Source: Alistipes sp. (GTDB lineage: Bacteria > Bacillota > Clostridia > Oscillospirales > Ruminococcaceae). From it: 64,000 nt of DNA. The position numbers and the translations under genes were made by a program. The notes below the pieces were generated by a model. It ran no database searches and was not told the origin of the DNA. It saw only the letters and a program-made list of their open reading frames with translations. Where the stretch lies: positions 101,334 to 165,333 of the forward strand of contig JAMPAJ010000002.1 of the NCBI GenBank assembly GCA_023667265.1, in the 5' to 3' direction. Numbering within the stretch: position 1 is the stretch's first letter; every line of letters begins with the position of its first letter. Shown here in pieces: positions 30,451-52,433 of this stretch.

Positions 30451-33400
30451 ATGGAAATGCCAAACAACAAGGTCAGTGAAGCACAGGCAATTTATATCGG
30501 TGAAATACGGCGAGTTCAGGAGACTGCCGAAAAGTGGAGAGATTTTCTTGATTTTGCGGCACAGGCGCAGATAAGTGAAAATCAGAGTGAATTTGAATTT
30601 TCCTCAAAGCTGATTATTCACGCGCGTAATCCAAATGCCAAAGACTGCCGCCCGTTCGGTGAATGGAAAACAGAGGACGGAAATCACGTCAGCCGGCTTG
30701 AAAGGGGAATACCCGTATTATCCCGTGACAGCAGAGGAAATCAGTCTGTAACGTATCTTTTCGATACAAGTCAGACAGCGTTAAAAAAAGAGCCTGAACG
30801 TATTGAAATCCCCGAAGAAATGAGGGAAAATCTTAAATCTGCTCTAAGCGGAATAATTAAAGATTTTTCGGACAATACTTCACTTTCCGACGTACAGAAG
30901 CGCATTTTTGCTGAAACTGCCGAATACAAGCTGTGCAAACAGTACGGACTTGAAACGGCAGAAAATCCCGAAAGATTTTCAGGTATTGAAAAGCTGTCAG
31001 TAAAAGAAATTGCAAACATCGGTGTAGCTCTTAACAGGTGCAGTAATTCTTTTGCTGAAACGGTAAAAAACGAAAGGAGTAATTTCAATGAGCGAGGTAA
31101 CAACAGTCAATCAAGAGATGATAGGACAGAATTATACGGACAGGAACGGCGTGGAGTGGATTTGGGACAAGGAGTATCGGGAACACGTGATGAAGTACGT
31201 TTACGACGAGAACATGAACGAATGGAGCAAACTCAACGAGGAGAACATGACATACGAACCGCTGATAGAAATTCCGCAGCCGAAGCCGACAGCGGCAATG
31301 GGCAAGTACGGCAGTATGAGACTGAAATTCATATGGCAGACCCCGTGCCTGTTGGAGATACTTCTCACGGACAATCAGGTGAAGCACTGCGAGGAAATGA
31401 ACGAGAAAGTTCTGAACCTGATAGAGAACATAGTGGAGAAGAAAAAGCAGTCGGAGGAATACAAGGCGATAGAGGAAACGGGGAAATTCCTGCCGAAAGT
31501 GCAGATACTGGAGAGGTACAGAGCAGAAGCGGAGGAGGAAATACTTCCCGTGACGGTTTACGCGATATAACGGAGGAAACGGCAGAGCCTGAAAAGGTTT
31601 CTGCCGTTTCTGTTTCCGAAAATGAACAGTCAGACCCTTTTGAAAACTTCAAACGTTCCAAAGACGGAGATATTATCTTAGGCAACACTACTTTCAGATA
31701 TATTCCCGAAAAGACCTATACCCAAATTGACAAGGATATAGCTGTCGAGGTTTCGGAACAGCTTGAGAAGCAAGGCATAAAATTTTCGGGAGTTATAAAG
31801 GGAGACACGGCAACAATTACCGTGAGCAAGCCGCAGAAAGAAACGCTTGACAGGATTATTGCGGATATTTCTTCTCCCAACAAAGATATTGCTGCCGAAG
31901 AAAGCATTGACACTCCCGAATTGACAGATAAGGAAAAGGCTTTTTTGGACGGAGAAACAGCTCCGCTTATGGCTAAAGATGTGCTTGCTTGGGACGAAAT
32001 AGAAGATATTGGCTACCGTTTGTACGAAAAAGGATATATCGACCGTCACGCTCCGAGCGAAAAGGCAATATACGGAAACGGTCTGAATGAACCCGTGCTT
32101 TACGATATGGCTAAGCGTATGCAAAACGGCGAGGATATTGGCAAAGAACTGTCTTTAGCTCTGCTCGGAAATCAGCGCACGTTTGACATAAACATTTTTG
32201 ACGAATTTAATGTTGAATACGGCAGTGACTTTATTACAGCCAAATTCGGCAATGCTGAAAAACAGGTAAGCTATGAGGAACTGGAAAATGCTTTTTTCAA
32301 ATTGTTCAAAGATGAGTATGATGATATTGTTCACGGCAGAACGGTTGAGGATTTGAGAGATATTTTTCCCGATATTACGGGCGAAACCGCCGATAACCTT
32401 ATCAATGCCTTTGACGGTGCAATTATGCACGGCTGGCAGGATAACGAGGTTGTTCAGCGTAAAATCAAAAAGGCTTTGTATAATATTCTCGGTGATAAGG
32501 AAAATACCGAAAAGGCTTTTTCTTCTATTGCAGATATGAAATATAACGTAAAAATAAGCAATATCGGCTTTTTCTCTCTCGGCAACGGTGTGACTGTCTG
32601 CGATACTTCCCGTATGGATAAGGAAACAAACGATTATGTTAAGGTGGCTCACATTTCGCCGGAGGGCGTACTTACTATGTACGATAATTCCGTCTCCCAA
32701 CAGGATATGGCAAGTATCAGGCAGCAAGTCAATACTGTGCGTGATGAATTTGTGCGGAACTGGAACTCAATGTCGAGGACGCAGCAGTTTGAAATGCTTC
32801 TTGACAGAGCCGATATTACCACACAGGTCAATATTTCCAAAGACAGTATCTCTATGGAAGAAAAAATTGAAAAATATATGCCCTATGTATTTTTCAAAAA
32901 AGGCGAAAGACCCGAACCGCAGACGGCAGAGCAGAATAATATCAAAAATATTGAATTTATTGGTGAAAGAGATAGCTTTGAAGCCGTAAAAGCAGCGGCT
33001 CGAACTCAATCCTTTGGTACTACCGTGACTGACGGCAACAGGCTTTCTATCGTTATGTATGATAATGCCGATGTTGACGAGGTAAGAAAACTCTTAGAAA
33101 CTGCACAAGAAAACAATGTTTTTGAAACTGTTGAAACCGCTAAAATGCTTGAAGATAAATTCGGAGCAGTTTTTTCATATAATTCTCAAAACAATCCCAC
33201 TGTTGCCGATTTATCGGCAGGAGATGTAATTCTCTATGAGGGCAAGCGAAGAGAAGTTGAAAAAATAAGCGAAAACAGCATAAGTCTGAAAGATTTGGAC
33301 GCGCCCGATTTCGGAGGTATTTTGCTCGGTACAAGTGACGTACTTGCGTATAAGGGCTGGCAGGAGGATATGAACGAAAAGGGTTTTGAAATTCTTTCCA

Positions 33401-36400
33401 AAGCCAAAACTTACTCCGAAATCACAAGGGATATGTACCAAACAGAAAATCCCGATATATTTACCGTTAAGGGCAAAGGCAGCTTTGCAAAAATTGATAT
33501 TACGGTCAATGCGGAGCTGTGGGAAAGGCTTGCCGAAAAGGGACTTGTACGGAACGAGAACAGTGTTGACAGGGTAATTTTCAATATTGATAACAAGGAA
33601 TGGAACAAACTTGTAATTCCCGATAAATGGGGAAATATGACCAACAATATCAATATCGAGGACGTTTTTACCAGTGAGGAATTGCAGACAGCTAAATCTG
33701 TTGCGGATTTTGTTATCGGAAATGAGGATATTCAGCAAGTGCTTGACAATTTCAATGAGGATATAACTCCTGTTGAAAATAATACGTCATTTTCGGAGGA
33801 AATAAGCGGCAGTAACGGCACTGTCAAATATAAGGTAACGGAAAACGCTGACGAGCAGTACAAATATAATGTGCAGATATTCACTCAGGGGGAGAACGGC
33901 GAATTTTATTACAGCGGCTTAGGTCGCTTCTGCGAAACGCTTGATGAAGCTCACGCTTTTATTGAAAATGATATTGCAGAGCGTACTGCCGCAAAGGATA
34001 GGCAACATTCCGATAAGGACGAAATCACCGGAAACGATGAATATAACATTTCACAGGGACAGATGTCACTGTTTGATGATATTCCGGATATAGAGGAAAT
34101 TCCCAATGAAAGAAACTATCAGGTTGTTACTTATTCTCGTGATTTGGGTGCAGATGACAAAAAGATTTTTTCAACATTGGACGAAGCCGTTGAAAGCGGC
34201 AGAGGATATTTGTATGACAAGGAACACGAGGGTTATTATTCGGGCATTGCCATTCTTAACACAAAAGAACAAAAGGTTGAATATTATGAGGGTGATTTCC
34301 CGTTAGAGGGTATTTTCAGCGAACAGGTATACCAAAACAGCGGTAATTGGCAGAGAGCCGAGCCAATTCCAAACTTACTGTTTGACAAGTTTGATGAGCA
34401 TTACAACGAAATGTATAAAAATCACGATGAAGTCAACGGTTATGACGAAGCGGTCGCTGTCGGTGACAAATTTATTAGGGAAAATCCCGATATTATGGAA
34501 AGAATAGCAAATTCCAGAAATGATGTTATTACCAGTGACCGTGAAGCAGCAGCTCTCGCATTTGCACTTGCCGACGTGGGTATGATTGACAAATTTGTTG
34601 AACCTGAACAGTCTAAACAACAGAAAGTTCAGCAGAATTTAGTTACATCGGTGCATACTGAACAATCGCCGTTAAATCCGGAACGTGTCACGGTGACACA
34701 CTCCGAAGCTGCAAAAGTGCCTGACATTGATGTTGAAAAGCCGGAAGAAAAGAAAACCAATAACCTTTTCCGCATAACAGACGAGCATTTGGGCGAGGGC
34801 GGCAAAAAGGAAAAATTCAGGAATAACATTGAAGCTATAAAAACGCTGCAAATCCTTGAAGCCGAAGAACGCGCCGCAACTCCCGAAGAACAGGAAACAC
34901 TGTCCAAATATATCGGCTGGGGCGGTTTGCAGGAAGCGTTTGACAATTCTCTCTCCGCTTGGGATACGGAATACCGCGAACTTAAAAATCTTCTTTCCGA
35001 GGAAGAATACGAAGCCGCACGGTCTACCGTAAACGACGCGTTTTACACTTCTCCGGTCATAACACAGGCAATTTATGAGGGACTTGCGAACATCGGATTT
35101 AACGGCGGAGAAGTCCTTGAGCCGTCAATGGGTGTGGGAAACTTTTTCGGAACTATGCCCGATAAAATGCGTGAAAACAGCAATCTGTCGGGAATTGAAA
35201 TCGACAGCATTTCGGGACGTATCGCCAAAAAGCTCTATCCCGAAGCGGATATTGCCATAAACGGCTATGAAAATATAAAGCTGACCAAAGGCTCTTTTGA
35301 CTTGGCTGTGGGCAACGTTCCGTTCGGAAATCACGGTGTAAACGACAAAACAAAGGCATACAAAGGACTTCTGATACACGACTACTTCTTTGCCAAATCC
35401 CTTGACAGCGTTCGTTCGGGCGGTATTGTTGCTTTTGTAACGTCAACGGGTACGCTCGATAAAGACGATACGAAAGTCCGTCAAATGCTTGCACAGAAAG
35501 CGGAGCTTTTGGGCGCGGTCAGACTGCCTAACAATGCTTTTCAGAAAAACGCAGGAACACAGACGGCAACCGATATTATCTTTCTGAAAAAGCGTGAAAA
35601 ACCGCTTAATATCAGCGAAATGCCTATGGATAAATCCTGTGAATGGGTGCATACAAAGGAAAACGCCGACGGTCTGAAAATAAACAGCTATTTTGCCGAC
35701 AATCCCGAAATGGTTTTAGGCGAACTTTCCGACAAGGGACGTTTCGGCAGTATAATATGCACTCCCGTTCAGGGCGCAGACCTTAAAGAACAGCTTCACG
35801 AAGCTATGAAAAATATCAAGGGAGAATACGTTCCCCTTGAATTTCAGCAGGAGCTTGACGAACGTGCGGAAAATAACTATCTGACCGCAACTCCCGATAT
35901 TGAAAATCTGACCTATACTGTTGTGGACGATAAGCTGTATTTCCGTGTTGACGATAACCTTATTCCGCTGAAAGAAAGCGAACAGCACGGAGTGACCGCA
36001 GACCGCCGCAAAGGTTTGTGCGATTTGGGTTTAACCGTCAGGGAGCTTTTGAAAGCGCAAGTCGAGGACAGACCCGACAAGGAAATAAAGCTGCTGCAAG
36101 CGGAGCTTAACGTTAAGTATGATAAATTCGTTCAGAAATTCGGACGGATAAATCCCACGGAAACGCCAAACTCAAGAAATGCAAGCGGAGTTACAAGAAA
36201 AGCTCCCAACAGCAACGTTTTCAAAAACGACGTAAGGCTGCCGCTTTTGCAGTCCCTTGAAAAAATGAAAGAGGGGCAGTTTGTAGGCAAAACAGAGATA
36301 TTCACCGAAAGAACCATACGTCCCCGTAAGGTAGCGGAACACGTTGAAACCGCTCACGAAGCATTGATTTTGTCAATATCCGAAAAGGGAAAAATTGACT

Positions 36401-39400
36401 TTGATTATATGCAGGACTTGACAGGCTTTGAGAAAGAAAAAATAGTTTCCGATTTGCACGGTGACATATACCCTGTTCCCGAACTTTCCACGGAAGATAA
36501 TACCGTATATCAGACAAGCGATGAGTATTTATCGGGAAATATCTATAAAAAAATAGCTATGGCGGAAGCAAAAATATCGGAAAATCCTGCCTATGCGGAA
36601 AATGTGGCGGCTCTGACGGAAGTAATACCGAAACCGCTGAAAGCCACGGAAATAGATATGCAGCTCGGTATGACTTGGATTGACACGAAAATCATTCAGC
36701 AGTTTATGTATGAAACTTTTGAAACTCCGCAGCGTTTCAAGGAATATGACGGAGATGTTCCGCAGGAAAATCCCTCCGCTATAACCGTTCACTATTCGGG
36801 CGCAGGAAAAGGCTCTTGGAAAGTTGAAAACGCATGTCTTGACAATTCCGTGAAGTCTACGAAAAATTTCGGTACAAAGGATTTGAACGCTTATGAACTG
36901 CTTGAAAAAATCCTTAACGCTAAATCGGTCGCGGTAACGCAAACCGTAAGAGATGAGGAGGGCAGACAAAAGACCGTAATTCTTGAAAAGCAGACAAAGG
37001 CAGCGGAGGATAAAGTCAAGCAGATAAACGCCGCTTTCAAAAAATGGATTTTTGCAGACCCCGAAAGGCGCAATGAGCTTGTAAAGACGTACAATGAAAA
37101 ATTCAACGGCATACGTCCCCGTGAATACGACGGCAGCAATCTTAATTTCTTCGGTTCAAATCCCGAAATAACGCTGAAACCGCATCAGAAAAATGCTGTG
37201 GCGCACGCGCTTTTCGGCGGCAATACGCTGTTCGCACATCAGGTCGGCGCAGGAAAAACCTTTGAGATGATAGCCACGGCAATGGAGGGAAAACGTCTCG
37301 GACTGCACAATAAGAGTATGTTTGTCGTTCCAAATCATCTGACGGAACAGATAGGCTCTGACTTTATGAAGCTGTACCCTAACGCTAATATTCTTGTGGC
37401 AAAGCCGGACGATTTTTCTCCGCAGAAGCGCAGACAGATGTGCGCAAGAATTGCAACGGGAAATTTCGACGCGGTAATTATAGGACATTCACAGCTTATA
37501 AAAATTCCGCTTTCCGCGAAGCGTGAAGAAGAATTTATACGCAAGCAGATAAACGAGGTTGTATCAGCTCTTGAAGCTGCCGAGGAAACCGACAGCAAAA
37601 GCTACACGGTAAAGCAGCTCGAAGCAACAAGAAAAAATCTCCGTGAACGTCTTGAAAAGCTGACCAACGGCACGGTCAAGGACAATGCGGTCACATTCGA
37701 GGAGCTTGGTGTGGATAAGCTGTTTGTAGACGAGGCTCACGAGTTTAAAAACCTCTATGTTTCCACAAAAATGGAGAACGTTTCGGGACTTTCCACTAAT
37801 GCCGACGTTCAGAAAACGCAGGATTTGTATATGAAATGTCAGTATCTTGACGAAAAAACAGGCAGCAAAGGTATTGTTTTCAGTACGGGAACGCCTGTGA
37901 CCAACGCTCTCTCGGAAATGTACACCACAATGAAATATTTGCAGTCCGATTTGCTGAAAGAAACAGGTCTTGACAGTTTCGATGCGTGGGCAGGAAATTT
38001 TACAAGAAAATCCACCGAAGCGGAAATCTCGCCCAGCGGCAGCGACTGGAGAATGAAAACACGTTTGAAATTCACCAACGTTCCCGAACTTGTCACTATG
38101 TTCAAAGAATGCGCCGATGTGAAAATGGCAGACCAACTCAATCTCGATGTGCCTGAATGCGAAAAGCACATTGTTTCGGTTGAGCCGACAGAAGCGCAAA
38201 AATCAGTTGTACAGTCCCTTGCGGTAAGAGCTGAAGCTATCAGCAAGGGAGAGGTTTCAAGAACAGAGGATAATATGCTTGTTGTAACAGGTGACGGAAG
38301 AAAGCTCGGTCTTGACCAACGGCTTTATGACCTTAATCTGCCCGACGAACCGCAGACAAAGTTAAACGCTTGTATTCAGAACGTTTTTGACATATGGGAA
38401 AATACGTCCGAAAAGAAGTCAACGCAGCTTGTTTTCTGTGATTTGGGTGTGCCGCAGTCCAAAGAAGATTTGAAAAAGAACGGAGAACGGTTTGACGTTT
38501 ATTCCGATATTCGTTCAAAGCTGATAGAAAAAGGCATACCCGAAAAGGAAATAGCCTTTATCCACGAAGCCAACAGCGAAACGGAAAAGGCGAAACTGTT
38601 TGCAAAAGTCCGCAGCGGAGACGTTCGTGTGCTTATCGGTTCAACGCAGAAAATGGGCGCAGGAACTAATGTGCAGGACAAACTTGTCGCACTTCACGAC
38701 CTTGACTGCCCTTGGAGACCCGCCGACCTAACGCAGCGTTTGGGACGTATGGTTAGACAGGGCAACGAAAACAAGAAAGTAGACAATTTCAGATATGTTA
38801 CCAAAGGCACGTTCGACGCATATCTGTACCAAATGGTAGAAAAAAAACAGGAAAGCATTTCGCAGATTTTCACGTCAAAGGCTATTGCGCGAACCTGTGA
38901 CGATATTGACGATATGGCGGTTGACCTTATGCAAGTCAAAATGGCTGCCGTGGGAGACGACCGTATCAGGCGGCAAATGGAGCTTAGAGAGGATATTCGC
39001 AGTCTGAATATGCTGAAAAATACATATCTTGAAAATAAATACGAAATTGAGGACAACATAAAAAGGCTGCCGTCCAAAATTGCCAACACGGAAAAAATAA
39101 TCGAGGGAATTGCCGCCGACACCAAAACGGTAAAAGGATATGTTCCCAAAAAGGATATTGACGGTCAGGAAGTTTTTGAAATGAAAGTCGGAAACACCTT
39201 GTACGTTGATAAAAAAGAAGCGGCGGAAGCTCTCAAAGCTGCTATGACAAGTGCTGTTATGGGAAATCCGAAAGCGCAAACGGATATAGCCGAATACAAA
39301 GGCTTCAAAATAGCCGTTTCCTATGACGGCTTCGCAAAATCTTACAAAGGACATCTTAAAGGCGAAAACATTTATTCCTTTGATTTTGGCAGCAGCGAAA

Positions 39401-40071
39401 GCGGAAATCTCACGAGAATAGATAACGCGATAGCTTCTGTTCCTATGCGTATAGATAAAGTCTGCAACGAGCTTGAACGTATGAAAACTGAGCTTGCCGA
39501 CAGCATAAAGGAAGCCGATATGCCGTTTGAGCATGAAGCGGAGCTTGAGGAAAAGAAACAGGAGCTTGAACGTCTGACTGACGAGATAAACGCCGATAAG
39601 GTAAAAGGTGAGATTGCGCCGGAACAGCCGGAAAGCACGGGAAAATCCTCAGAAAAGCCGGAAAAACAGGTGCAGACCGAAAAAGTTGATAATCTCAACA
39701 TCAAATGGCGGCAGAACGACAAGGAGCTTCGCATAACCTATGACAGAACCGCCGACAGCAAGATTACCGCATATTCGGACGGAAAAGAAATAGGGCATTG
39801 CTCCCCCGACGAGCTGACGGTCACTAAAATCAGCGGGAGCGAACAGAAAAAATATCCCGACGGAATAACAAAGTGCGTCGAACCTTTAAACCTTGCGTTC
39901 AGCAGTAAAATGGCTATGCACATCAATAACTTTGCCGAAAGGGTGAAAGAAGCGGAAAAGTCCGTTTCAAGGGACGATAAGGCACTTTTCTCCCGTGACA
40001 GGATTATGAGCGATGATTTCAAGCCAACCTCGGAAAAGTCAGCCGATACTCCCAAATCTCAGTCGCTTTAA
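30451..40071 (+). CDS. 3206-aa DarB-like protein: ArdC-like N-terminus, N6-adenine MTase and SNF2-type helicase
   Basis: LEPSMGVGNF, GNVPF, HQVGAGKT, FVDEAHEFKN, GTPVTN, MGAGTNVQ, QRLGRMVRQGN. Confidence 0.9.
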   Translation: MEMPNNKVSEAQAIYIGEIRRVQETAEKWRDFLDFAAQAQISENQSEFEFSSKLIIHARNPNAKDCRPFGEWKTEDGNHVSRLERGIPVLSRDSRGNQSVTYLFDTSQTALKKEPERIEIPEEMRENLKSALSGIIKDFSDNTSLSDVQKRIFAETAEYKLCKQYGLETAENPERFSGIEKLSVKEIANIGVALNRCSNSFAETVKNERSNFNERGNNSQSRDDRTELYGQERRGVDLGQGVSGTRDEVRLRREHERMEQTQRGEHDIRTADRNSAAEADSGNGQVRQYETEIHMADPVPVGDTSHGQSGEALRGNERESSEPDREHSGEEKAVGGIQGDRGNGEIPAESADTGEVQSRSGGGNTSRDGLRDITEETAEPEKVSAVSVSENEQSDPFENFKRSKDGDIILGNTTFRYIPEKTYTQIDKDIAVEVSEQLEKQGIKFSGVIKGDTATITVSKPQKETLDRIIADISSPNKDIAAEESIDTPELTDKEKAFLDGETAPLMAKDVLAWDEIEDIGYRLYEKGYIDRHAPSEKAIYGNGLNEPVLYDMAKRMQNGEDIGKELSLALLGNQRTFDINIFDEFNVEYGSDFITAKFGNAEKQVSYEELENAFFKLFKDEYDDIVHGRTVEDLRDIFPDITGETADNLINAFDGAIMHGWQDNEVVQRKIKKALYNILGDKENTEKAFSSIADMKYNVKISNIGFFSLGNGVTVCDTSRMDKETNDYVKVAHISPEGVLTMYDNSVSQQDMASIRQQVNTVRDEFVRNWNSMSRTQQFEMLLDRADITTQVNISKDSISMEEKIEKYMPYVFFKKGERPEPQTAEQNNIKNIEFIGERDSFEAVKAAARTQSFGTTVTDGNRLSIVMYDNADVDEVRKLLETAQENNVFETVETAKMLEDKFGAVFSYNSQNNPTVADLSAGDVILYEGKRREVEKISENSISLKDLDAPDFGGILLGTSDVLAYKGWQEDMNEKGFEILSKAKTYSEITRDMYQTENPDIFTVKGKGSFAKIDITVNAELWERLAEKGLVRNENSVDRVIFNIDNKEWNKLVIPDKWGNMTNNINIEDVFTSEELQTAKSVADFVIGNEDIQQVLDNFNEDITPVENNTSFSEEISGSNGTVKYKVTENADEQYKYNVQIFTQGENGEFYYSGLGRFCETLDEAHAFIENDIAERTAAKDRQHSDKDEITGNDEYNISQGQMSLFDDIPDIEEIPNERNYQVVTYSRDLGADDKKIFSTLDEAVESGRGYLYDKEHEGYYSGIAILNTKEQKVEYYEGDFPLEGIFSEQVYQNSGNWQRAEPIPNLLFDKFDEHYNEMYKNHDEVNGYDEAVAVGDKFIRENPDIMERIANSRNDVITSDREAAALAFALADVGMIDKFVEPEQSKQQKVQQNLVTSVHTEQSPLNPERVTVTHSEAAKVPDIDVEKPEEKKTNNLFRITDEHLGEGGKKEKFRNNIEAIKTLQILEAEERAATPEEQETLSKYIGWGGLQEAFDNSLSAWDTEYRELKNLLSEEEYEAARSTVNDAFYTSPVITQAIYEGLANIGFNGGEVLEPSMGVGNFFGTMPDKMRENSNLSGIEIDSISGRIAKKLYPEADIAINGYENIKLTKGSFDLAVGNVPFGNHGVNDKTKAYKGLLIHDYFFAKSLDSVRSGGIVAFVTSTGTLDKDDTKVRQMLAQKAELLGAVRLPNNAFQKNAGTQTATDIIFLKKREKPLNISEMPMDKSCEWVHTKENADGLKINSYFADNPEMVLGELSDKGRFGSIICTPVQGADLKEQLHEAMKNIKGEYVPLEFQQELDERAENNYLTATPDIENLTYTVVDDKLYFRVDDNLIPLKESEQHGVTADRRKGLCDLGLTVRELLKAQVEDRPDKEIKLLQAELNVKYDKFVQKFGRINPTETPNSRNASGVTRKAPNSNVFKNDVRLPLLQSLEKMKEGQFVGKTEIFTERTIRPRKVAEHVETAHEALILSISEKGKIDFDYMQDLTGFEKEKIVSDLHGDIYPVPELSTEDNTVYQTSDEYLSGNIYKKIAMAEAKISENPAYAENVAALTEVIPKPLKATEIDMQLGMTWIDTKIIQQFMYETFETPQRFKEYDGDVPQENPSAITVHYSGAGKGSWKVENACLDNSVKSTKNFGTKDLNAYELLEKILNAKSVAVTQTVRDEEGRQKTVILEKQTKAAEDKVKQINAAFKKWIFADPERRNELVKTYNEKFNGIRPREYDGSNLNFFGSNPEITLKPHQKNAVAHALFGGNTLFAHQVGAGKTFEMIATAMEGKRLGLHNKSMFVVPNHLTEQIGSDFMKLYPNANILVAKPDDFSPQKRRQMCARIATGNFDAVIIGHSQLIKIPLSAKREEEFIRKQINEVVSALEAAEETDSKSYTVKQLEATRKNLRERLEKLTNGTVKDNAVTFEELGVDKLFVDEAHEFKNLYVSTKMENVSGLSTNADVQKTQDLYMKCQYLDEKTGSKGIVFSTGTPVTNALSEMYTTMKYLQSDLLKETGLDSFDAWAGNFTRKSTEAEISPSGSDWRMKTRLKFTNVPELVTMFKECADVKMADQLNLDVPECEKHIVSVEPTEAQKSVVQSLAVRAEAISKGEVSRTEDNMLVVTGDGRKLGLDQRLYDLNLPDEPQTKLNACIQNVFDIWENTSEKKSTQLVFCDLGVPQSKEDLKKNGERFDVYSDIRSKLIEKGIPEKEIAFIHEANSETEKAKLFAKVRSGDVRVLIGSTQKMGAGTNVQDKLVALHDLDCPWRPADLTQRLGRMVRQGNENKKVDNFRYVTKGTFDAYLYQMVEKKQESISQIFTSKAIARTCDDIDDMAVDLMQVKMAAVGDDRIRRQMELREDIRSLNMLKNTYLENKYEIEDNIKRLPSKIANTEKIIEGIAADTKTVKGYVPKKDIDGQEVFEMKVGNTLYVDKKEAAEALKAAMTSAVMGNPKAQTDIAEYKGFKIAVSYDGFAKSYKGHLKGENIYSFDFGSSESGNLTRIDNAIASVPMRIDKVCNELERMKTELADSIKEADMPFEHEAELEEKKQELERLTDEINADKVKGEIAPEQPESTGKSSEKPEKQVQTEKVDNLNIKWRQNDKELRITYDRTADSKITAYSDGKEIGHCSPDELTVTKISGSEQKKYPDGITKCVEPLNLAFSSKMAMHINNFAERVKEAEKSVSRDDKALFSRDRIMSDDFKPTSEKSADTPKSQSL
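31088..31570 (+). CDS. TnpV-like protein nested in the +1 frame of the giant helicase gene
   Basis: RBS GAAAGGAG before the ATG; MGKYGSMRLKF..LLEILL..HCEEMNE..YRAEAEEEIL..VYAI matches the TnpV pattern. Confidence 0.72.
   Translation: MSEVTTVNQEMIGQNYTDRNGVEWIWDKEYREHVMKYVYDENMNEWSKLNEENMTYEPLIEIPQPKPTAAMGKYGSMRLKFIWQTPCLLEILLTDNQVKHCEEMNEKVLNLIENIVEKKKQSEEYKAIEETGKFLPKVQILERYRAEAEEEILPVTVYAI
34683..34701. repeat. ICE palindrome copy 8 (intragenic)
   Basis: ACGTGTCAC-G-GTGACACAC within the helicase gene (encodes RVTVTH in a linker). Confidence 0.85.
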
Positions 40072-40118: not shown

Positions 40119-40147
40119 TTGACATTAGTTTATATTTGTGATAAAAT
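40119..40147 (+). promoter_or_regulatory. sigma-A-type promoter of the ICE ECF sigma gene
   Basis: TTGACA-17 bp-TAAAAT. Confidence 0.7.
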
Positions 40148-40200
40148 GGGTATATCATTTTAAAGGACAGTATTTTACTGTTCTTTTAAGGAGATTGCTT

Positions 40201-40659
40201 ATGAAATTTGAGAACATCTTTAACGAGATAGCCGAGCAATACTATAACGCCATTTTCAAGTATTGCTGTGTCAGACTGGATAATGAACACGCTGCAAAGG
40301 ACTGTACGCAGGAAGTTTTCCTGACACTGTACAGAAAAATAGATAAAATGAAGCTGTCGGAGAACGTCAGAGCTTGGCTTTACCGTACTGCCGACAATGT
40401 TATGAAAAATTACCGCAGGAAAAATAAAATAACCGTTTCCATTGACGATATTAACGAAACTACCGAAGATAGTTACTCGGTGGAAACGCCGTTTGAAGAT
40501 ATTATCACCAAAGAGGAATACGAGCTGCTTAATTCCTACTACATAAACGGTGACAGTATCGAAACCATTTCAAAACGGCTTGGTATCAGCAAGGACGCTG
40601 TTTACCAACGTATTCACAGGATAAAAACAAAAATCGAAAAAGAATATATGCAACAGTAA
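40201..40659 (+). CDS. ECF RNA polymerase sigma factor (ICE cargo)
   Basis: AKDCTQEVFLTLY..VRAWLYRTADN (region 2); SIETISKRLGISKDAVYQRIHR (region 4); RBS AAGGAG. Confidence 0.9.
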   Translation: MKFENIFNEIAEQYYNAIFKYCCVRLDNEHAAKDCTQEVFLTLYRKIDKMKLSENVRAWLYRTADNVMKNYRRKNKITVSIDDINETTEDSYSVETPFEDIITKEEYELLNSYYINGDSIETISKRLGISKDAVYQRIHRIKTKIEKEYMQQ

Positions 40660-40757: not shown

Positions 40758-41564
40758 ATGGAAAATATGGAAAACATTCTTGAAAAAATTCGTTCAGACA
40801 GTTCTTTCGGTGAAATAACCGCCGAGGAACTGGAAAAACAGCTTGACCGCGAGCTTGCAAAGCCGAACCCTGACTATGATTTAGTCGAAGAACTGACAGC
40901 GGCGATTATGGAAGCAAGAGGAAAAGCTGTAAAAGAAATTAACGTACAGTCTGAAATCAGAATGATAAAGCAAAAGAGCGCAAAGCGTTTCAAATTTCCC
41001 AAATGAGCAATTGCCGCAAGCGCGGCGTGTATTATGCTTATCGGTGCAAACACTGTGTCCGTGGCGGCATGGGGTACAAATATTTTTTCGGCGATTGTGC
41101 AATTTACCAAAGGGGATTTGACTATTGATTTAGGCAAGCAGGAACAGACCGTAATCAGCTTGCCGACGTCGGAGAACGACCCTTACGGCATAAAAGCAAA
41201 GTGCGCCGAATACGGTATTTCTCCGCAAGCTCCATTTTATCTTCCCGACGGTTTTGAGTTGGTGGATTTTTATGCCGAAATAAACGAAGCGTTCAGCGAT
41301 ATATGCTTCTTTTACAAAAACGGCAAAACAAGGCTGAATATAACCTTTACAAAATACGTCAATTCGGATAATATACCGCCGATAGGAATACCGACGGATA
41401 CTTATAATCTTCAGGAAACCGAAATAAACGGGCAAACCGTATTCATTCTGAAAGAGGACGGTCAGTTTACCGCAACCTATTTGAACAACGGCATAGTTTA
41501 TGTTATTACTTCAAATAAACTTGACTATGACGAATGCCAAAAGGTAGTGGAAGCAATGAAATAG
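40758..41564 (+). pseudogene. DUF4367-type anti-sigma factor interrupted by an in-frame TGA at 41004-41006
   Basis: 40758-41006 and 41034-41564 are in frame: FKFPK*AIAASAACIMLIGAN (likely TGG>TGA just before the TM); C-terminal PFYLPDGFEL..QETEINGQTVF. Confidence 0.8.
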
Positions 41565-43275: not shown

Positions 43276-43318
43276 AAATCTCCCTCTATAAGCACTTGCC
43301 TATAGAGGGAGATTTTTT
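43276..43318. terminator. Bidirectional terminator between convergent ICE blocks
   Basis: AAATCTCCCTCTATA/TATAGAGGGAGATTT perfect stem with A/T tracts on both sides. Confidence 0.85.
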
Positions 43319-43319
43319 A

Positions 43320-44729
43320 TTATAACTCCAAATCATTCTTTTTATCCAAACCAACATTCTTGTCCTTACTTCTCGTAGGAGCATACTTGTCAGAACTGAT
43401 TTCGGCAACCGAAAATAAAGGCTCTTTTTCCTGTTCGTCTTTCTTTTCAGGAGCAGAGGGAATAGTAGGTTGAGCTGCCTTGCGTTCATGCTTGACAGAC
43501 GGCTTTTTTACTTGTTCCGCAGCTCGCTTTTTCTTGTCGAGCATTGAAGCAGCCTTTTTCAGTATGTCCTTAATATCGGAGAAAAAATTATATACTTTGC
43601 TTTCGGCAGTGTGCGTACCCCTTTCAATTTTGGACTTAGCCTTAGTCAGAGCTTGCGGTGTTTCAATCGAGATGATAGGCTTAAGCGACATAGTTCCGTC
43701 CTCGTTTTGAGTTTCTTTCGTAAGAGTGATTTTTGACGATAATTTAGCATTTGGCACTTTCTCACGCTTCTCAATTTCCGCATTGACGGCTTTTATTTCA
43801 TTCAGAATAAGGTCTTTAACATCGCTGTTATGTGGGTCTTGCGCTTGAGCTGCAAGTCTTTCTGCGGCATTTTTAAGCATATCGGAATTGTAAATAGTTC
43901 TGTTGCTGAATACCGACAGTTTCCTCTCATAGGCTTTCTGAGCGGCTTCTGAACGTGTTTCCGCATACTTTGTCCTCTTGCTTCTAAGCTGCTTTAAATC
44001 GGCTTTAATGGTCGCATATTCGGAATTATTCAGTATTTTTTCATTCAGCCGCCGACGTTCCTCTGCCGGAATTTCTATAATACATCTGTCAACATTGTTT
44101 ACCTTGTCATGTTCAACAAATGAAACTATTGTGATTTCGGGAACACTTCTGCGCCCGTCATTGTTGTATGTCCTGTCGGTAGGAAACTGTGATATTCCGT
44201 GAGCAACTTTAGGATTATTTTTATCAAGCCTGAAAAAAGCATATATTCTTTCATCGGGAGTTTTCTTGTTTTCAGGTTCAAATACAAGCATAAAATCAGC
44301 TGCGATTTCGGAATTATACGGACGTTGGCTTCTATGACAGTCCAAGTTCCACGAATACGCTTTTACATTACCGCTGTTCAGAACCTCGCGGAAATTCGCA
44401 AATGTATCTATTCTGTCATCGAGGGTATATGTCACGCTGTTCTTTTGAGGGTCGTTGAGCGGAACATTCCACGATGAGCTGCTGCAAGCAGTTTGATATG
44501 TAACGGTATTGTCCATTATATTATCATATAATCTGCTGCTGCTTATATCAGAAAATGGAGGTAAATCAGTCAGTTTCTCTAAACCTGCTAAGTGCATAAA
44601 TCCGCTGTTGTCAAAGCCGATAGTTGTATTGATAATTGTTCCGTTATTGTGCAAACATATTTTGTATTCATAATTTCCAAGTTCTGCATATGAATTTGCA
44701 CACTGATATAATTTGTCATTATTCTCCAT
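43320..44729 (-). CDS. PBECR4-like (Barnase/EndoU/colicin/RelE superfamily) nuclease with a long C-terminal tail
   Basis: LYQCANSYAELGNYEYKI..FDNSGFMHLAGLEKL, IAADFML, SQFP; charged tail ending EPLFSVAEISSDKYAPT..DLEL. Confidence 0.7.
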   Translation of the reverse strand: MENNDKLYQCANSYAELGNYEYKICLHNNGTIINTTIGFDNSGFMHLAGLEKLTDLPPFSDISSSRLYDNIMDNTVTYQTACSSSSWNVPLNDPQKNSVTYTLDDRIDTFANFREVLNSGNVKAYSWNLDCHRSQRPYNSEIAADFMLVFEPENKKTPDERIYAFFRLDKNNPKVAHGISQFPTDRTYNNDGRRSVPEITIVSFVEHDKVNNVDRCIIEIPAEERRRLNEKILNNSEYATIKADLKQLRSKRTKYAETRSEAAQKAYERKLSVFSNRTIYNSDMLKNAAERLAAQAQDPHNSDVKDLILNEIKAVNAEIEKREKVPNAKLSSKITLTKETQNEDGTMSLKPIISIETPQALTKAKSKIERGTHTAESKVYNFFSDIKDILKKAASMLDKKKRAAEQVKKPSVKHERKAAQPTIPSAPEKKDEQEKEPLFSVAEISSDKYAPTRSKDKNVGLDKKNDLEL

Positions 44730-44747
44730 TTCCGCACCTCTTTACAT

Positions 44748-44923
44748 AAAATAAGCGGCTCTGAAAACAGAACCGCTTATTGCATATTTTCTTTCAGCAT
44801 TTCTGCCTACGTCAAGTCTGGTTCCTATGCAACCACTAAAGCTCCATGCACACCCCTTGACTCCTGCGTGACACTTCATAGCTTAGCAATCCCGATTACT
44901 TACGGGCAATGCTGATTTTCATC
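44748..44923 (-). ncRNA. Candidate ~175-nt structured RNA/leader ending in a terminator upstream of the PBECR4 gene
   Basis: Consensus promoter upstream; no ORF noticed; terminator stem AATAAGCGGTTCTG/CAGAGCCGCTTATT plus T tract (44748-44781) before the RBS. Confidence 0.45.
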
Positions 44924-44929
44924 ATTTAT

Positions 44930-44958
44930 ATTATATGCTATTTTTTTCGATTTGTCAA
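44930..44958 (-). promoter_or_regulatory. Perfect sigma-A consensus promoter
   Basis: TTGACA-17 bp-TATAAT. Confidence 0.8.
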
Positions 44959-44987
44959 GGGCTTTTGAAAAATTTTTTAAAATTTTT

Positions 44988-45302
44988 TTATTTCCGTATT
45001 CTCTCCAATTCGTCCCTTAGTTCAGCTATAATCTGCCGCTGTATCTGTGTTTCCACTCTGTACTCGTCAACCAGCTTCTGCCATTCGGCTTTGACTGCTG
45101 CGTGATTATGCCTGTTGTTTGCAGCTCTGAACCGCGCATTTGCTTTCTCTACGGTTTCGGCACATTCGGAACAATATTTGCGCTTGATAAGAGCGTAATA
45201 GCTTGTGTCATATTCATTTCCTATGTACTTTGCACACACAATACAATGCCCTGTCAGAACCCCGTCAACGTACTGCAAGGCAGGATTTTTAAATTTACTC
45301 AT
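44988..45302 (-). CDS. Small CxxC...CxxC zinc-binding protein with a coiled coil
   Basis: CIVC...YCSEC; RBS GAAAGGA. Confidence 0.65.
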   Translation of the reverse strand: MSKFKNPALQYVDGVLTGHCIVCAKYIGNEYDTSYYALIKRKYCSECAETVEKANARFRAANNRHNHAAVKAEWQKLVDEYRVETQIQRQIIAELRDELERIRK

Positions 45303-51891: not shown

Positions 51892-52344
51892 TTACCTTAT
51901 TCTCACCCGAAGTCCCTCTAACGGAATATTATTCCTGTCGGAACTTATCGACTTTGAACCGACAATATAATAGTCATCTCCATCGTGTTCAACGCTGCTC
52001 ACAACCCAACGATAATAACCGTTCCAATCATCATAAGCATAGTATTCTATGCTGTTTCCGCAAGTGTATTCGTGCGCTTCACACTCATATCTTCCGCCGC
52101 TGTTTTTGTGCAGAACATACTCGCCCCTTATCGGTTTCCGAAGATAGCTTATTGTGTCGCTTGCTTCGGAAATATTCAGCATAACTTTCCGAAGCTCCTC
52201 GACCAACAAAAGCTGTTCGGGACTGTTGCTGTCCGCTTCAATTCCCGATAAATCTCCGTTCGCTTCAATCCCTGTATTCTTGATAAGACGTGTAAATTCC
52301 GTATTAAGTACCGACAAGGATTTCATTAACTCGTTAATGTTCAT
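51892..52344 (-). CDS. DUF5348-like protein
   Basis: YVLHKNSGGRYE..YTCGNSIE..VEH..YYIVG..LEGLRVRIR. Confidence 0.75.
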   Translation of the reverse strand: MNINELMKSLSVLNTEFTRLIKNTGIEANGDLSGIEADSNSPEQLLLVEELRKVMLNISEASDTISYLRKPIRGEYVLHKNSGGRYECEAHEYTCGNSIEYYAYDDWNGYYRWVVSSVEHDGDDYYIVGSKSISSDRNNIPLEGLRVRIR

Positions 52345-52404: not shown

Positions 52405-52433
52405 ATTATACCATGAGTTGCCATAATTGTCAA
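52405..52433 (-). promoter_or_regulatory. Perfect sigma-A promoter driving the DUF5348-parA-radSAM/parB operon
   Basis: TTGACA-17 bp-TATAAT with extended TG. Confidence 0.8.

What the first reader, a model, noticed from the sequence alone, without database searches (positions are those of the whole stretch)
43320..44958. Promoter-ncRNA-terminator-RNase module with type III toxin-antitoxin architecture
Seen: a perfect TTGACA-17-TATAAT promoter, about 175 nt of non-coding sequence with hairpin potential (e.g. AGCATTGCCCG...CGGGATTGCT), an intrinsic terminator, then the RBS of a PBECR4-like nuclease. Established: type III TA loci (ToxIN, CptIN) use this layout to over-produce an RNA antitoxin relative to an RNase toxin, and PBECR domains belong to RNase toxin folds. 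No tandem repeats were seen, so it is not a canonical ToxI array. Inference: an RNA-antitoxin/Abi or addiction module, possibly also exported through its tail motif.
Basis: partly seen in the sequence, partly recalled or inferred. Interest (0 to 1): 0.68.

Follow-up and report, generated by a model that had tools for sequence, protein, structure and literature searches.

The report
Drum RNA paired with PBECR4 nuclease
The non-coding stretch is a copy of the known but unexplained "drum" structured RNA, and in every case sampled it sits in a fixed promoter-RNA-terminator-gene cassette with a predicted RNA-cutting enzyme, which makes it testable as an RNA-antidote/toxin pair.

Summary
It lies on the minus strand. 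A 12/12 consensus promoter (44958-44930) is followed by a ~180-nt non-coding RNA, a strong intrinsic terminator (44780-44744), an RBS and a 469-aa ORF (44729-43320) with an N-terminal PBECR4 domain. There are no tandem repeats.

The RNA is not new. It is the drum RNA motif (Rfam RF02958, 48.4 bits against a gathering score of 43), preceded by a conserved 5' hairpin. It is the only Rfam gathering-level hit in the window.

The main result is how strict the pairing is. About two dozen distinct intact PBECR4 genes were retrieved by protein similarity alone, from ICE-type metagenome contigs, Enterococcus/Streptococcus plasmids, viral contigs and chromosomal-looking contigs. Every one has a drum on the same strand directly upstream, and all 20 cassettes read across the spacer have an intrinsic terminator there.

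Drums also occur without the protein. Many are standalone genes in phage contigs, often inside tRNA arrays. Two, possibly three, loci keep an intact drum next to a decayed or disrupted PBECR4 gene.

This fits the layout and logic of a type III toxin-antitoxin or abortive-infection module. Two defining features fail: the RNA is not a repeat array, and the nuclease matches PBECR4, not a ToxN-type family. Toxicity, RNA-protein binding and expression are untested. Export through the tail motif has no support.

The parts
44963..44990 (.). AT-rich tract (AAAATTTTTT x2) just upstream of the -35; possibly an UP element
   Evidence: Tandem Repeats Finder; sequence. Function inferred.
44930..44958 (-). 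Consensus sigma-70-type promoter: TTGACA (44958-44953), 17-nt spacer, TATAAT (44935-44930). Predicted transcription start near 44923.
   Evidence: 12/12 match. 2 perfect matches in the window against 0.02 expected. The same promoter block is kept almost unchanged in L001-L016.
44885..44913 (-). 5' hairpin (P0) directly before the drum core; not part of the Rfam model
   Evidence: A hairpin folds at this position in almost all drum loci, with different stem sequences. The loop is ACUUGAG-like in phage and plasmid copies and GUAAGUAAU in the window type.
44779..44884 (-). Drum RNA core (Rfam RF02958): helices P1, P2 and P4, a pseudoknot between the GGUU..AACC loop (GCAUA) and the 3' tail (UAUGC), and a second pseudoknot GUCAAG:CUUGAC
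   Evidence: Rfam 48.4 bits against a gathering score of 43. My own model gives 81.8 bits. Covariation over 43 sequences: 89.9% of cells paired against 33-43% when partners are slid. The second pseudoknot changes on both strands together across loci.
44744..44780 (-). Intrinsic terminator between the RNA and the ORF (13-bp stem, UUUU loop, U-run)
   Evidence: A hairpin plus U-run sits at the same place in all 20 cassettes read there, with unrelated stem sequences. It does not overlap the drum helices.
44735..44742 (-). Ribosome-binding site AAGAGGUG, 5 nt before the ATG
   Evidence: Sequence. There is no space for a separate promoter between terminator and ORF, so the ORF can only be expressed by read-through (inference).
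43320..44729 (-). 469-aa ORF: PBECR4 domain (about residues 1-220), helical region (222-325), then a low-confidence, probably disordered Lys/Glu-rich tail (326-469) that ends in a conserved motif (window: EPLFSVAEISSDKYAPT...KKNDLEL)
   Evidence: Pfam PF18813, E = 8.3e-15. 28 full-length homologs. Alignment invariants include H46, R106, S180 and D185. AlphaFold2 pLDDT is about 90 for residues 1-325 and below 50 for most of 327-469.
43276..43315 (.). Long GC-rich hairpin between the convergent ORFs, just past the 3' end of the PBECR4 gene; likely a terminator for both
   Evidence: 18-pair terminator-like site listed on the minus strand.

Best explanation
Shown: the region is one copy of a widespread two-part cassette.
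- A consensus promoter drives a ~180-nt highly structured small RNA made of a 5' hairpin, the double-pseudoknotted drum core and an intrinsic terminator.
- The gene for a PBECR4-domain protein, a predicted metal-independent BECR-fold endoribonuclease, follows immediately. It has an RBS but no room for a promoter of its own.
- Drum and PBECR4 are linked in every case sampled.

Inferred, most likely mechanism: most transcripts stop at the terminator, so the RNA is made in excess, and rare read-through yields a little nuclease. The drum RNA is the nuclease's cognate partner and holds it inactive, as RNA antitoxins do in type III toxin-antitoxin and abortive-infection systems. When transcription of the cassette stops, through loss of the element or phage shut-off, the RNA level would fall and the RNase would be freed. 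Phage-borne drum genes that lack the protein would then be decoys that keep the host's nuclease inhibited.

Here the cassette sits in the accessory region of an integrative conjugative element of a Ruminococcus-like bacterium.
For: Identity of the parts
- Rfam drum above the gathering score.
- Pfam PBECR4.
- Strong covariation for all helices and both pseudoknots.

Linkage in every case sampled, with loci retrieved by protein similarity only
- All ICE-type homolog loci fetched, about 10 distinct. L010 is cut off and shows only the 3' part of the drum plus the terminator.
- 6 of 6 Enterococcus/Streptococcus plasmid loci fetched, out of 20 hits.
- 4 of 4 viral contigs.
- 5 of 5 distant 237-391-aa forms.

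Layout
- An intrinsic terminator lies between drum and start codon, with spacers of 40-78 nt, in all 20 cassettes read there.
- The terminator does not overlap the drum helices, which argues against a riboswitch-type switch.

The RNA outlives the protein gene
- An intact drum sits next to a PBECR4 gene broken by a stop and truncation (L004) or a frameshift (L030). In L018 an IS200-type transposase gene follows the drum and a PBECR4 fragment lies 5 kb away.
- About 17 distinct drums in phage contigs have no PBECR4 in 382 kb of held sequence. Several have their own promoter and terminator.

Coupling of RNA and protein variants
- The first 95 residues co-segregate with the drum variant: 65-85% identical to the window with variant a, 43-49% with variant b.
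- Residues 96-220 stay 70-86% identical in both groups.

Conservation and context
- The leader is as conserved as the coding sequence or more so: 77-92% against 64-87% nucleotide identity.
- The cassette has different neighbours in different elements (AbiH, IS1216, SSB, ParB, peptidases), as a self-contained module would.
- From my own knowledge: type III RNA antitoxins also fold as pseudoknots.
Against: - No experiment or expression data. Toxicity of PBECR4, RNase activity, RNA-protein binding and the short transcript are all untested. Public RNA runs were held only as contigs.
- No tandem repeats, so there is no sign of the toxin-processed repeat array that defines ToxI, CptI and TenpI.
- The nuclease matches Pfam PBECR4, not a ToxN-type family. 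The fold search found no solved relative, so even the RNase assignment rests on the Pfam match and on Iyer et al. 2017 (PMC5512222).
- No match to any PADLOC defence model.
- The coupling of N-terminus and drum variant could be plain physical linkage.
- Weinberg et al. 2017 (PMC5737381) report the associated protein on either side and strand. I saw only the upstream, same-strand arrangement, so my sample may be incomplete.
Confidence: 0.42

Rival explanations
1. Ribonucleoprotein: drum is an obligate cofactor, scaffold or substrate of PBECR4 rather than its inhibitor. The protein would process drum into a functional RNA, or drum would position the nuclease on its targets.
For: The same strict linkage and the same coupling of N-terminus to drum variant. 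Drum has the conservation and tertiary complexity that Weinberg et al. 2017 (PMC5737381) associate with 'sophisticated biochemical function'. Its invariant single-stranded GGAG and GAAAGAAAA stretches could be binding or cleavage sites.
Against: Drums persist without any PBECR4 in many phage contigs and beside decayed PBECR4 genes. That is odd for a cofactor that is useless on its own. A terminator that favours RNA over protein fits an inhibitor made in excess better than a 1:1 partner.
Confidence: 0.25
2. Cis-acting leader: drum senses a ligand, or the PBECR4 protein itself, and sets read-through of the terminator. It would be a regulatory 5' UTR, not a trans-acting RNA.
For: In every cassette drum lies in the 5' UTR position with a terminator before the ORF. 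Autoregulatory protein-binding leaders are common.
Against: About half of the distinct drums found have no downstream PBECR4. Some are embedded between tRNA genes, in one case 1 nt from a tRNA. No alternative pairing between drum and the terminator stem was seen. Weinberg et al. 2017 (PMC5737381) judged drum an improbable riboswitch.
Confidence: 0.12
3. Effector and immunity: the long ICE form of PBECR4 is moved into recipient cells through the conjugation channel by its C-terminal tail to attack recipient RNAs, and drum protects the donor.
For: Iyer et al. 2017 (PMC5512222) propose that the polyvalent proteins carrying PBECR domains are delivered into the invaded cell with the DNA. The window is a conjugative element. 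The C-terminal motif is conserved among the 460-530-aa forms.
Against: The short 190-240-aa forms lack the tail yet keep the same cassette. No secretion signal for these systems is defined, and nothing here tests export.
Confidence: 0.08
4. Coincidence: an unrelated small-RNA gene that merely lies next to a nuclease gene.
For: None beyond the fact that both parts can occur in mobile elements.
Against: About two dozen of about two dozen independent PBECR4 loci carry drum in the same position and orientation. The proteins have diverged to 21-30% identity.
Confidence: 0.02

Closest known systems
drum RNA motif (Rfam RF02958; Weinberg et al. 2017, PMC5737381)
   Same: Full-length match above the curated threshold. 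It has the same helices, is followed by a Rho-independent terminator and is associated with a nearby protein gene, all as the paper describes.
   Different: Nothing structural; this is a member. Added here: the conserved 5' hairpin outside the Rfam model, the partner protein identified as PBECR4 in my sample, the fixed cassette order, and the orphan copies in phage tRNA arrays. The paper's supplement was not available, so I cannot say how much of this its authors had already noted.
Type III toxin-antitoxin / abortive-infection systems (ToxIN, CptIN, TenpIN, AbiQ-antiQ).
   Same: One promoter, then a structured pseudoknotted RNA, an intrinsic terminator and an endoRNase gene. Located on mobile elements. 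Phages carry RNA-only copies, as phage phiTE carries a pseudo-ToxI.
   Different: The RNA is a single ~110-nt complex fold, not an array of 34-45-nt direct repeats. The nuclease matches PBECR4 (predicted BECR fold), not a ToxN-type family. Toxicity, processing and complex formation are unproven.
PBECR domains of polyvalent proteins (Iyer et al. 2017, PMC5512222; Pfam PF18813)
   Same: Same Pfam family. Conserved His in an N-terminal helix (H46) and a conserved Ser/Thr region (S180, T184). Found in phages and T4SS-type elements, including solo forms.
   Different: That paper, in the passages read, proposes targets such as host or phage mRNAs and CRISPR RNAs and mentions no partner RNA. Here the gene follows a dedicated structured RNA in every case sampled.
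BECR-fold toxins with protein antidotes (colicin D/E5 with immunity proteins, RelE with RelB)
   Same: Same predicted fold class. The nuclease is encoded next to a dedicated neutraliser (inferred here).
   Different: In those systems the neutraliser is a protein. Here the only conserved neighbour is an RNA.

Membership tests
drum RNA (Rfam RF02958) | Covariance-model score at or above the curated gathering score (43 bits), full length | tested here: met
   48.4 bits, model positions 1-112 of 112, E = 2e-7.
drum RNA (Rfam RF02958) | Consensus helices supported by compensatory changes | tested here: met
   43 sequences including the window: 89.9% of cells paired against 33-43% with slid partners, 222 cells changed on both sides, and 0 of 500 shuffles reach the observed value on four of the five measures, 6 of 500 on the fifth. 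The loop-loop pseudoknot covaries. Caveat: the alignment was fitted to the model.
drum RNA (Rfam RF02958) | Followed by a Rho-independent terminator (Weinberg et al. 2017) | tested here: met
   Hairpin plus U-run at 44780-44744.
Type III toxin-antitoxin | Antitoxin is an array of tandem direct RNA repeats | tested here: not met
   No tandem repeat in 44700-44960. Two loci (L001, L004) have two whole promoter-drum-terminator units in tandem, but these are separate genes, not a processed array.
Type III toxin-antitoxin | Toxin belongs to the ToxN/AbiQ/CptN/TenpN endoRNase families | tested here: not met
   Pfam reports PBECR4 as the only hit above threshold. No match to any PADLOC defence model.
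Type III toxin-antitoxin | One promoter, RNA gene, intrinsic terminator, then the toxin gene | tested here: met
   conserved in all 20 cassettes read across the spacer.
Type III toxin-antitoxin | Toxin is growth-inhibitory, is neutralised by direct RNA binding, and processes the RNA | not testable with these tools
   Needs expression, binding and cleavage assays.
PBECR4 (Pfam PF18813) | Profile score above the gathering cut-off | tested here: met
   56.1 bits against 27, residues 6-173.
PBECR4 (Pfam PF18813) | [quoted passage not shown] 2017) | tested here: inconclusive
   H46 and S180 are invariant in 18 homologs, and the matching His and Ser are invariant in the solo forms. Which residues are catalytic was not established.
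PBECR4 (Pfam PF18813) | BECR fold | tested here: inconclusive
   The model is confident for residues 1-325, but Foldseek found no significant PDB match. The only strong hit is an unnamed 202-aa viral protein in BFVD.
Riboswitch / cis-acting attenuator | Consistently in 5' UTRs, with an expression platform that competes with the sensor fold | tested here: not met
   Many drums have no downstream gene partner and lie among tRNA genes. The terminator stem does not overlap the drum helices.

The most novel reading that the evidence does not exclude
Drum RNAs are a family of structured RNA inhibitors of PBECR4 (BECR-fold) ribonucleases. Together they form a previously unrecognised RNA-antitoxin defence or addiction system of Firmicutes mobile elements. 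It is built from a single complex pseudoknotted RNA instead of a repeat array. Phages answer it by carrying protein-less drum genes inside their tRNA arrays as decoys.
Probability: 0.35. Interest if true: 0.85.

Novelty: new variant of a known kind. Interest (0 to 1): 0.62.

Why it matters
Drum was singled out in 2017 as a widespread bacterial RNA whose conservation and complexity suggest a demanding biochemical job. No function for it appears in the literature I could search. Tying it in every sampled case to a predicted RNase, in a layout that makes RNA in excess over protein, turns an orphan RNA into a concrete experiment that takes two plasmids.

If the RNA neutralises the nuclease, three things would follow:
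- RNA-antitoxin systems would extend beyond the ToxN-type toxins and repeat-array antitoxins known so far.
- PBECR4 proteins would gain a first functional context.
- It would explain why phages carry drum genes among their tRNAs.

If the RNA is instead a cofactor, it would be a new bacterial ribonucleoprotein nuclease.

Tried and rejected
- blastn of the leader against annotated plasmids and phages. Only a 36-nt AT-rich chance hit and nothing else. The family is too divergent for DNA similarity, so covariance models were needed.
- Scans of viral contigs with the ICE-type protein: none found. The genome and metagenome collections gave only 5 loci, so most loci came from exact-protein look-ups.
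- Expression evidence. Runs that hold the leader were found, but all are kept as assembled contigs. These show that leader-like sequence is common in gut samples while the coding sequence is not. They say nothing reliable about transcript ends or abundance.
- Fold search of the AlphaFold2 model against the PDB: no significant match. A sequence profile against the PDB gave only one weak hit, a putative nucleotidyltransferase at E = 0.007, taken as noise.
- PADLOC and NCBIfam: no informative match.
- The 45-aa ORF inside the leader (44879-44742). Rejected as coding. It has no Shine-Dalgarno sequence. The drum variants differ by single-base indels that break the frame. Its apparent conservation follows the RNA helices. 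It explains the false N-terminal extensions on some database proteins.
- Riboswitch reading. Rejected because the terminator does not compete with the drum fold and because of the orphan copies.
- A single-stranded-DNA promoter or origin. Not pursued; no test was made. I dropped it because the promoter is an ordinary double-stranded consensus promoter and many copies lie in phage tRNA arrays.
- Six of the 42 pattern hits in viral contigs (L025, L038, L045, L051, L053, L054) were chance matches without a drum.
Full report
**1. What is in the window**

The feature is on the minus strand.
- A perfect TTGACA-17-TATAAT promoter lies at 44958-44930. There are only two perfect matches in 64 kb, against 0.02 expected from shuffles. 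An AT-rich tract precedes it.
- From a predicted start near 44923 the sequence is non-coding for about 180 nt.
- Next comes a 106-nt stretch at 44884-44779.
- A strong hairpin with a U-run follows at 44780-44744.
- An RBS (AAGAGGUG) lies 5 nt before the ATG at 44729.
- The ORF runs to 43320 (469 aa). It matches Pfam PBECR4 over residues 6-173 (E = 8.3e-15, 56.1 bits against a cut-off of 27).
- There are no tandem repeats in the leader.

**2. The RNA is a known family**

A scan against Rfam gives a full-length match of 44884-44779 to drum RNA (RF02958). The score is 48.4 bits against a gathering score of 43. It is the only gathering-level Rfam hit in the whole window.

Weinberg et al. [quoted passage not shown] They called them 'improbable riboswitches' because they are rarely in 5' UTRs. 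[quoted passage not shown] Its function was unknown. Their supplement is not held, and I found no later functional work.

**3. Structure of the RNA**

I collected 43 drum sequences (41 distinct) from related loci and aligned them to a covariance model.
- The four nested helices are 89.9% paired, against 33-43% when the 3' partners are slid by 1-3 columns.
- 222 cells are changed on both sides. No shuffle of 500 reaches the observed value on four of the five measures, and 6 of 500 do on the fifth.
- One of these helices joins the loop of a GGUU..AACC hairpin to the 3' tail. In the window this is GCAUA with UAUGC.
- A second pseudoknot joins the P2 loop to the strand before UAG. It changes on both strands together: GUCAAG:CUUGAC in the window, GGCAAG:CUUGCC, GUCAGG:CCUGAC, UCCAGU:ACUGGA and ACUGUCUU:AAGACAGU elsewhere.
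- The hairpin in front of the core (P0) is not in the Rfam model. It is present in almost all loci with unrelated stems. The loop is ACUUGAG-like in phage and plasmid copies.
- The 45-aa ORF inside the leader is an artefact. Single-base indels between drum variants break its frame.

**4. The cassette is conserved and the pairing held in every case sampled**

The protein has only 28 full-length relatives in 5.8 billion clusters. A full HMMER pass over 1.84 billion representatives finds 165 family members, in short (190-240 aa), middle (325-390 aa) and long (460-530 aa) forms.

I retrieved loci by protein similarity alone and then looked for drum.
- All ICE-type loci fetched, about 10 distinct. 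The proteins are 39-77% identical to the window's. L010 is cut off and shows only the 3' part of the drum plus the terminator.
- 6 of 6 Enterococcus/Streptococcus plasmid loci fetched, out of 20 tblastn hits. These carry solo ~195-aa proteins.
- 4 of 4 viral contigs.
- 5 of 5 distant loci with 237-391-aa forms, some in chromosomal-looking contexts.

In every case drum lies on the same strand directly upstream. It scores above the Rfam gathering score in most loci. L003 (41.4 bits) and the gene-adjacent variant-b copy in L001 (40.6 bits) fall just below it. For L007 and L011, also variant b, Rfam listed no hit at gathering level, and drum was found only with my own model (44.2 and 56.2 bits). 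In all 20 cassettes read there, a hairpin plus U-run of unrelated sequence fills the 40-78 nt between drum and the start codon. A sigma-70-type promoter is recognisable just upstream in many of them. I found no intact PBECR4 gene without drum.

The leader is as conserved as the coding sequence or more so: 77-92% against 64-87% nucleotide identity.

**5. Drum without the protein**

A conserved-core pattern scan of viral contigs gave 42 loci. Rfam confirmed drum in 36 of them, at 55-102 bits.
- Only five carry PBECR4. In all five it lies directly downstream on the same strand. One of the five is frameshifted.
- The remaining roughly 17 distinct drums have no PBECR4 in 382 kb of six-frame-translated held sequence.
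- Several have their own promoter and terminator.
- At least eight lie within 600 nt of tRNA genes in phage tRNA arrays. One is 1 nt from a tRNA, and one array holds three drums.
- In L004 the PBECR4 gene has an early stop and is truncated while drum is intact. In L030 it is frameshifted. In L018 an IS200-type transposase gene follows the drum and a PBECR4 fragment lies 5 kb away on the other strand.

So the RNA can persist and spread alone. The protein gene was never seen alone.

**6. The protein**

- AlphaFold2 with 18 homologs gives a confident model for residues 1-325 (pLDDT about 90). It has a mixed alpha/beta domain followed by four long helices. Most of 327-469 is low-confidence.
- Foldseek finds no significant PDB relative. 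The only strong match is an unnamed 202-aa viral protein.
- The RNase assignment therefore rests on the Pfam match and on Iyer et al. 2017 (PMC5512222). [quoted passage not shown] H46 and S180 are invariant here.
- No PADLOC defence model matches.
- The first 95 residues track the drum variant. They are 65-85% identical to the window when the adjacent drum is variant a, and 43-49% when it is variant b.
- Residues 96-220 stay 70-86% identical in both groups. For example, L015 against L011 gives 46% and then 94%.
- This could be functional specificity or simple linkage.

**7. Context**

The window is an integrative conjugative element. Searches identify:
- a coupling protein;
- a VirB4-like ATPase;
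- topoisomerase III;
- a primase;
- a 3206-aa SNF2/methylase polyvalent protein;
- a sigma factor;
- ParA and ParB;
- a MobA/VirD2 relaxase;
- a serine recombinase.

A dockerin/BspA protein, and a close relative of the PBECR4 protein in a Ruminococcus flavefaciens MAG, point to a Ruminococcus-like host.

The cassette has different neighbours in different elements, among them AbiH, IS1216, SSB, peptidases and ParB. That is how self-contained modules behave.

**8. Interpretation**

Shown:
- the identity of both parts;
- the fixed order promoter, P0, drum, terminator, RBS, PBECR4;
- the linkage in every sampled locus;
- the orphan and decayed cases.

Inferred:
- the terminator makes RNA exceed protein;
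- the RNA is the protein's cognate partner.

The reading I favour (0.42) is an RNA-antitoxin/RNase-toxin module that works like a type III system, with phage orphan drums acting as decoys. The main rivals are a ribonucleoprotein in which drum is a cofactor or substrate (0.25) and a cis-acting leader (0.12). The leader reading fits poorly with the orphan copies and with a terminator that does not compete with the drum fold. An effector-immunity variant that uses the C-terminal tail for export (0.08) has no direct support.

The module is not a member of the type III family as defined. It has no repeat array, and the nuclease matches PBECR4 rather than a ToxN-type family.

**9. Verdict**

The RNA motif and the protein domain are each already catalogued. 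Three things are not in the literature I could reach:
- the explicit drum-PBECR4 cassette;
- how strictly the two are paired;
- the distribution of orphan drums in phages.

Together they make a long-standing orphan RNA directly testable.

Noticed in passing
L001 3593-3698 and 3850-3956; L004 3616-3704 and 3847-3952: Two complete drum units in tandem before one PBECR4 gene. In L001 the upstream unit is the window type (variant a) and the unit next to the gene is variant b, each with its own promoter and terminator. In L004 the upstream copy is degenerate and the gene is a pseudogene.
   Followed up: partly
L023 10537-11675; L041 4289-4397; L050 2850-2956; L032, L036, L046, L048, L049: In phage contigs drum genes sit inside tRNA gene arrays: three drums in L023, and one in L050 that is 1 nt from a tRNA. 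Skipping-rope RNAs (L023, L041, L055) and a group I intron (L050 3360-3610) lie nearby.
   Followed up: partly
L028 11490-11537; L031 591-638; L052 3716-3763: A DUF3800-XI RNA (Rfam RF02975, 62.5 bits) directly abuts the 3' end of drum. It links two of the 2017 orphan motifs physically.
   Followed up: no
window 44925-44960: The ~35-nt promoter block recurs in many gut metagenome and metatranscriptome contigs joined to different downstream sequences (loose ends at 44925; one reads as an RBS plus a start codon of another gene). The same promoter seems to be reused in front of other genes of related elements. It occurs only once in this window.
   Followed up: partly
window 52405-52433 (-): A second perfect TTGACA-17-TATAAT promoter, just downstream of the relaxase gene and facing the next minus-strand ORF (51892-52344).
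   Followed up: no
window 44742-44879 (-); proteins P0008, P0018, P0020, P0023: A 45-aa ORF overlaps drum. In some database entries it, or an upstream start, is fused to PBECR4 as a false N-terminal extension. This is an annotation artefact caused by the conserved RNA.
   Followed up: yes
window 30451-40071 (+): A 3206-aa protein with Eco57I-type methylase and SNF2/helicase domains, of the polyvalent kind typical of conjugative elements. A sigma-70-family gene (40138-40659) and a DUF4367 gene (41034-41564) follow it.
   Followed up: no
L071 733-865 and 1744-1840; L072: One drum-PBECR4 cassette lies between an aspartate kinase gene and the SRP RNA/dnaX locus. It appears to be a chromosomal insertion rather than a plasmid or phage copy.
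   Followed up: no
L059-L064 (Enterococcus/Streptococcus plasmids): The plasmid drums are a shorter variant that lacks the P4 hairpin and the GAAAG part of the A-rich strand, yet they still score above the Rfam threshold. In pEFM9-2 the neighbouring gene is AbiH. L059 also carries an Enterococcus sRNA Ref1C-like hit on the other strand (1619-1749).
   Followed up: partly
L004 2446-2541: A NiCo riboswitch (75 bits) lies about 1.3 kb upstream of the decayed cassette in a Lachnospiraceae MAG. Probably unrelated.
   Followed up: no
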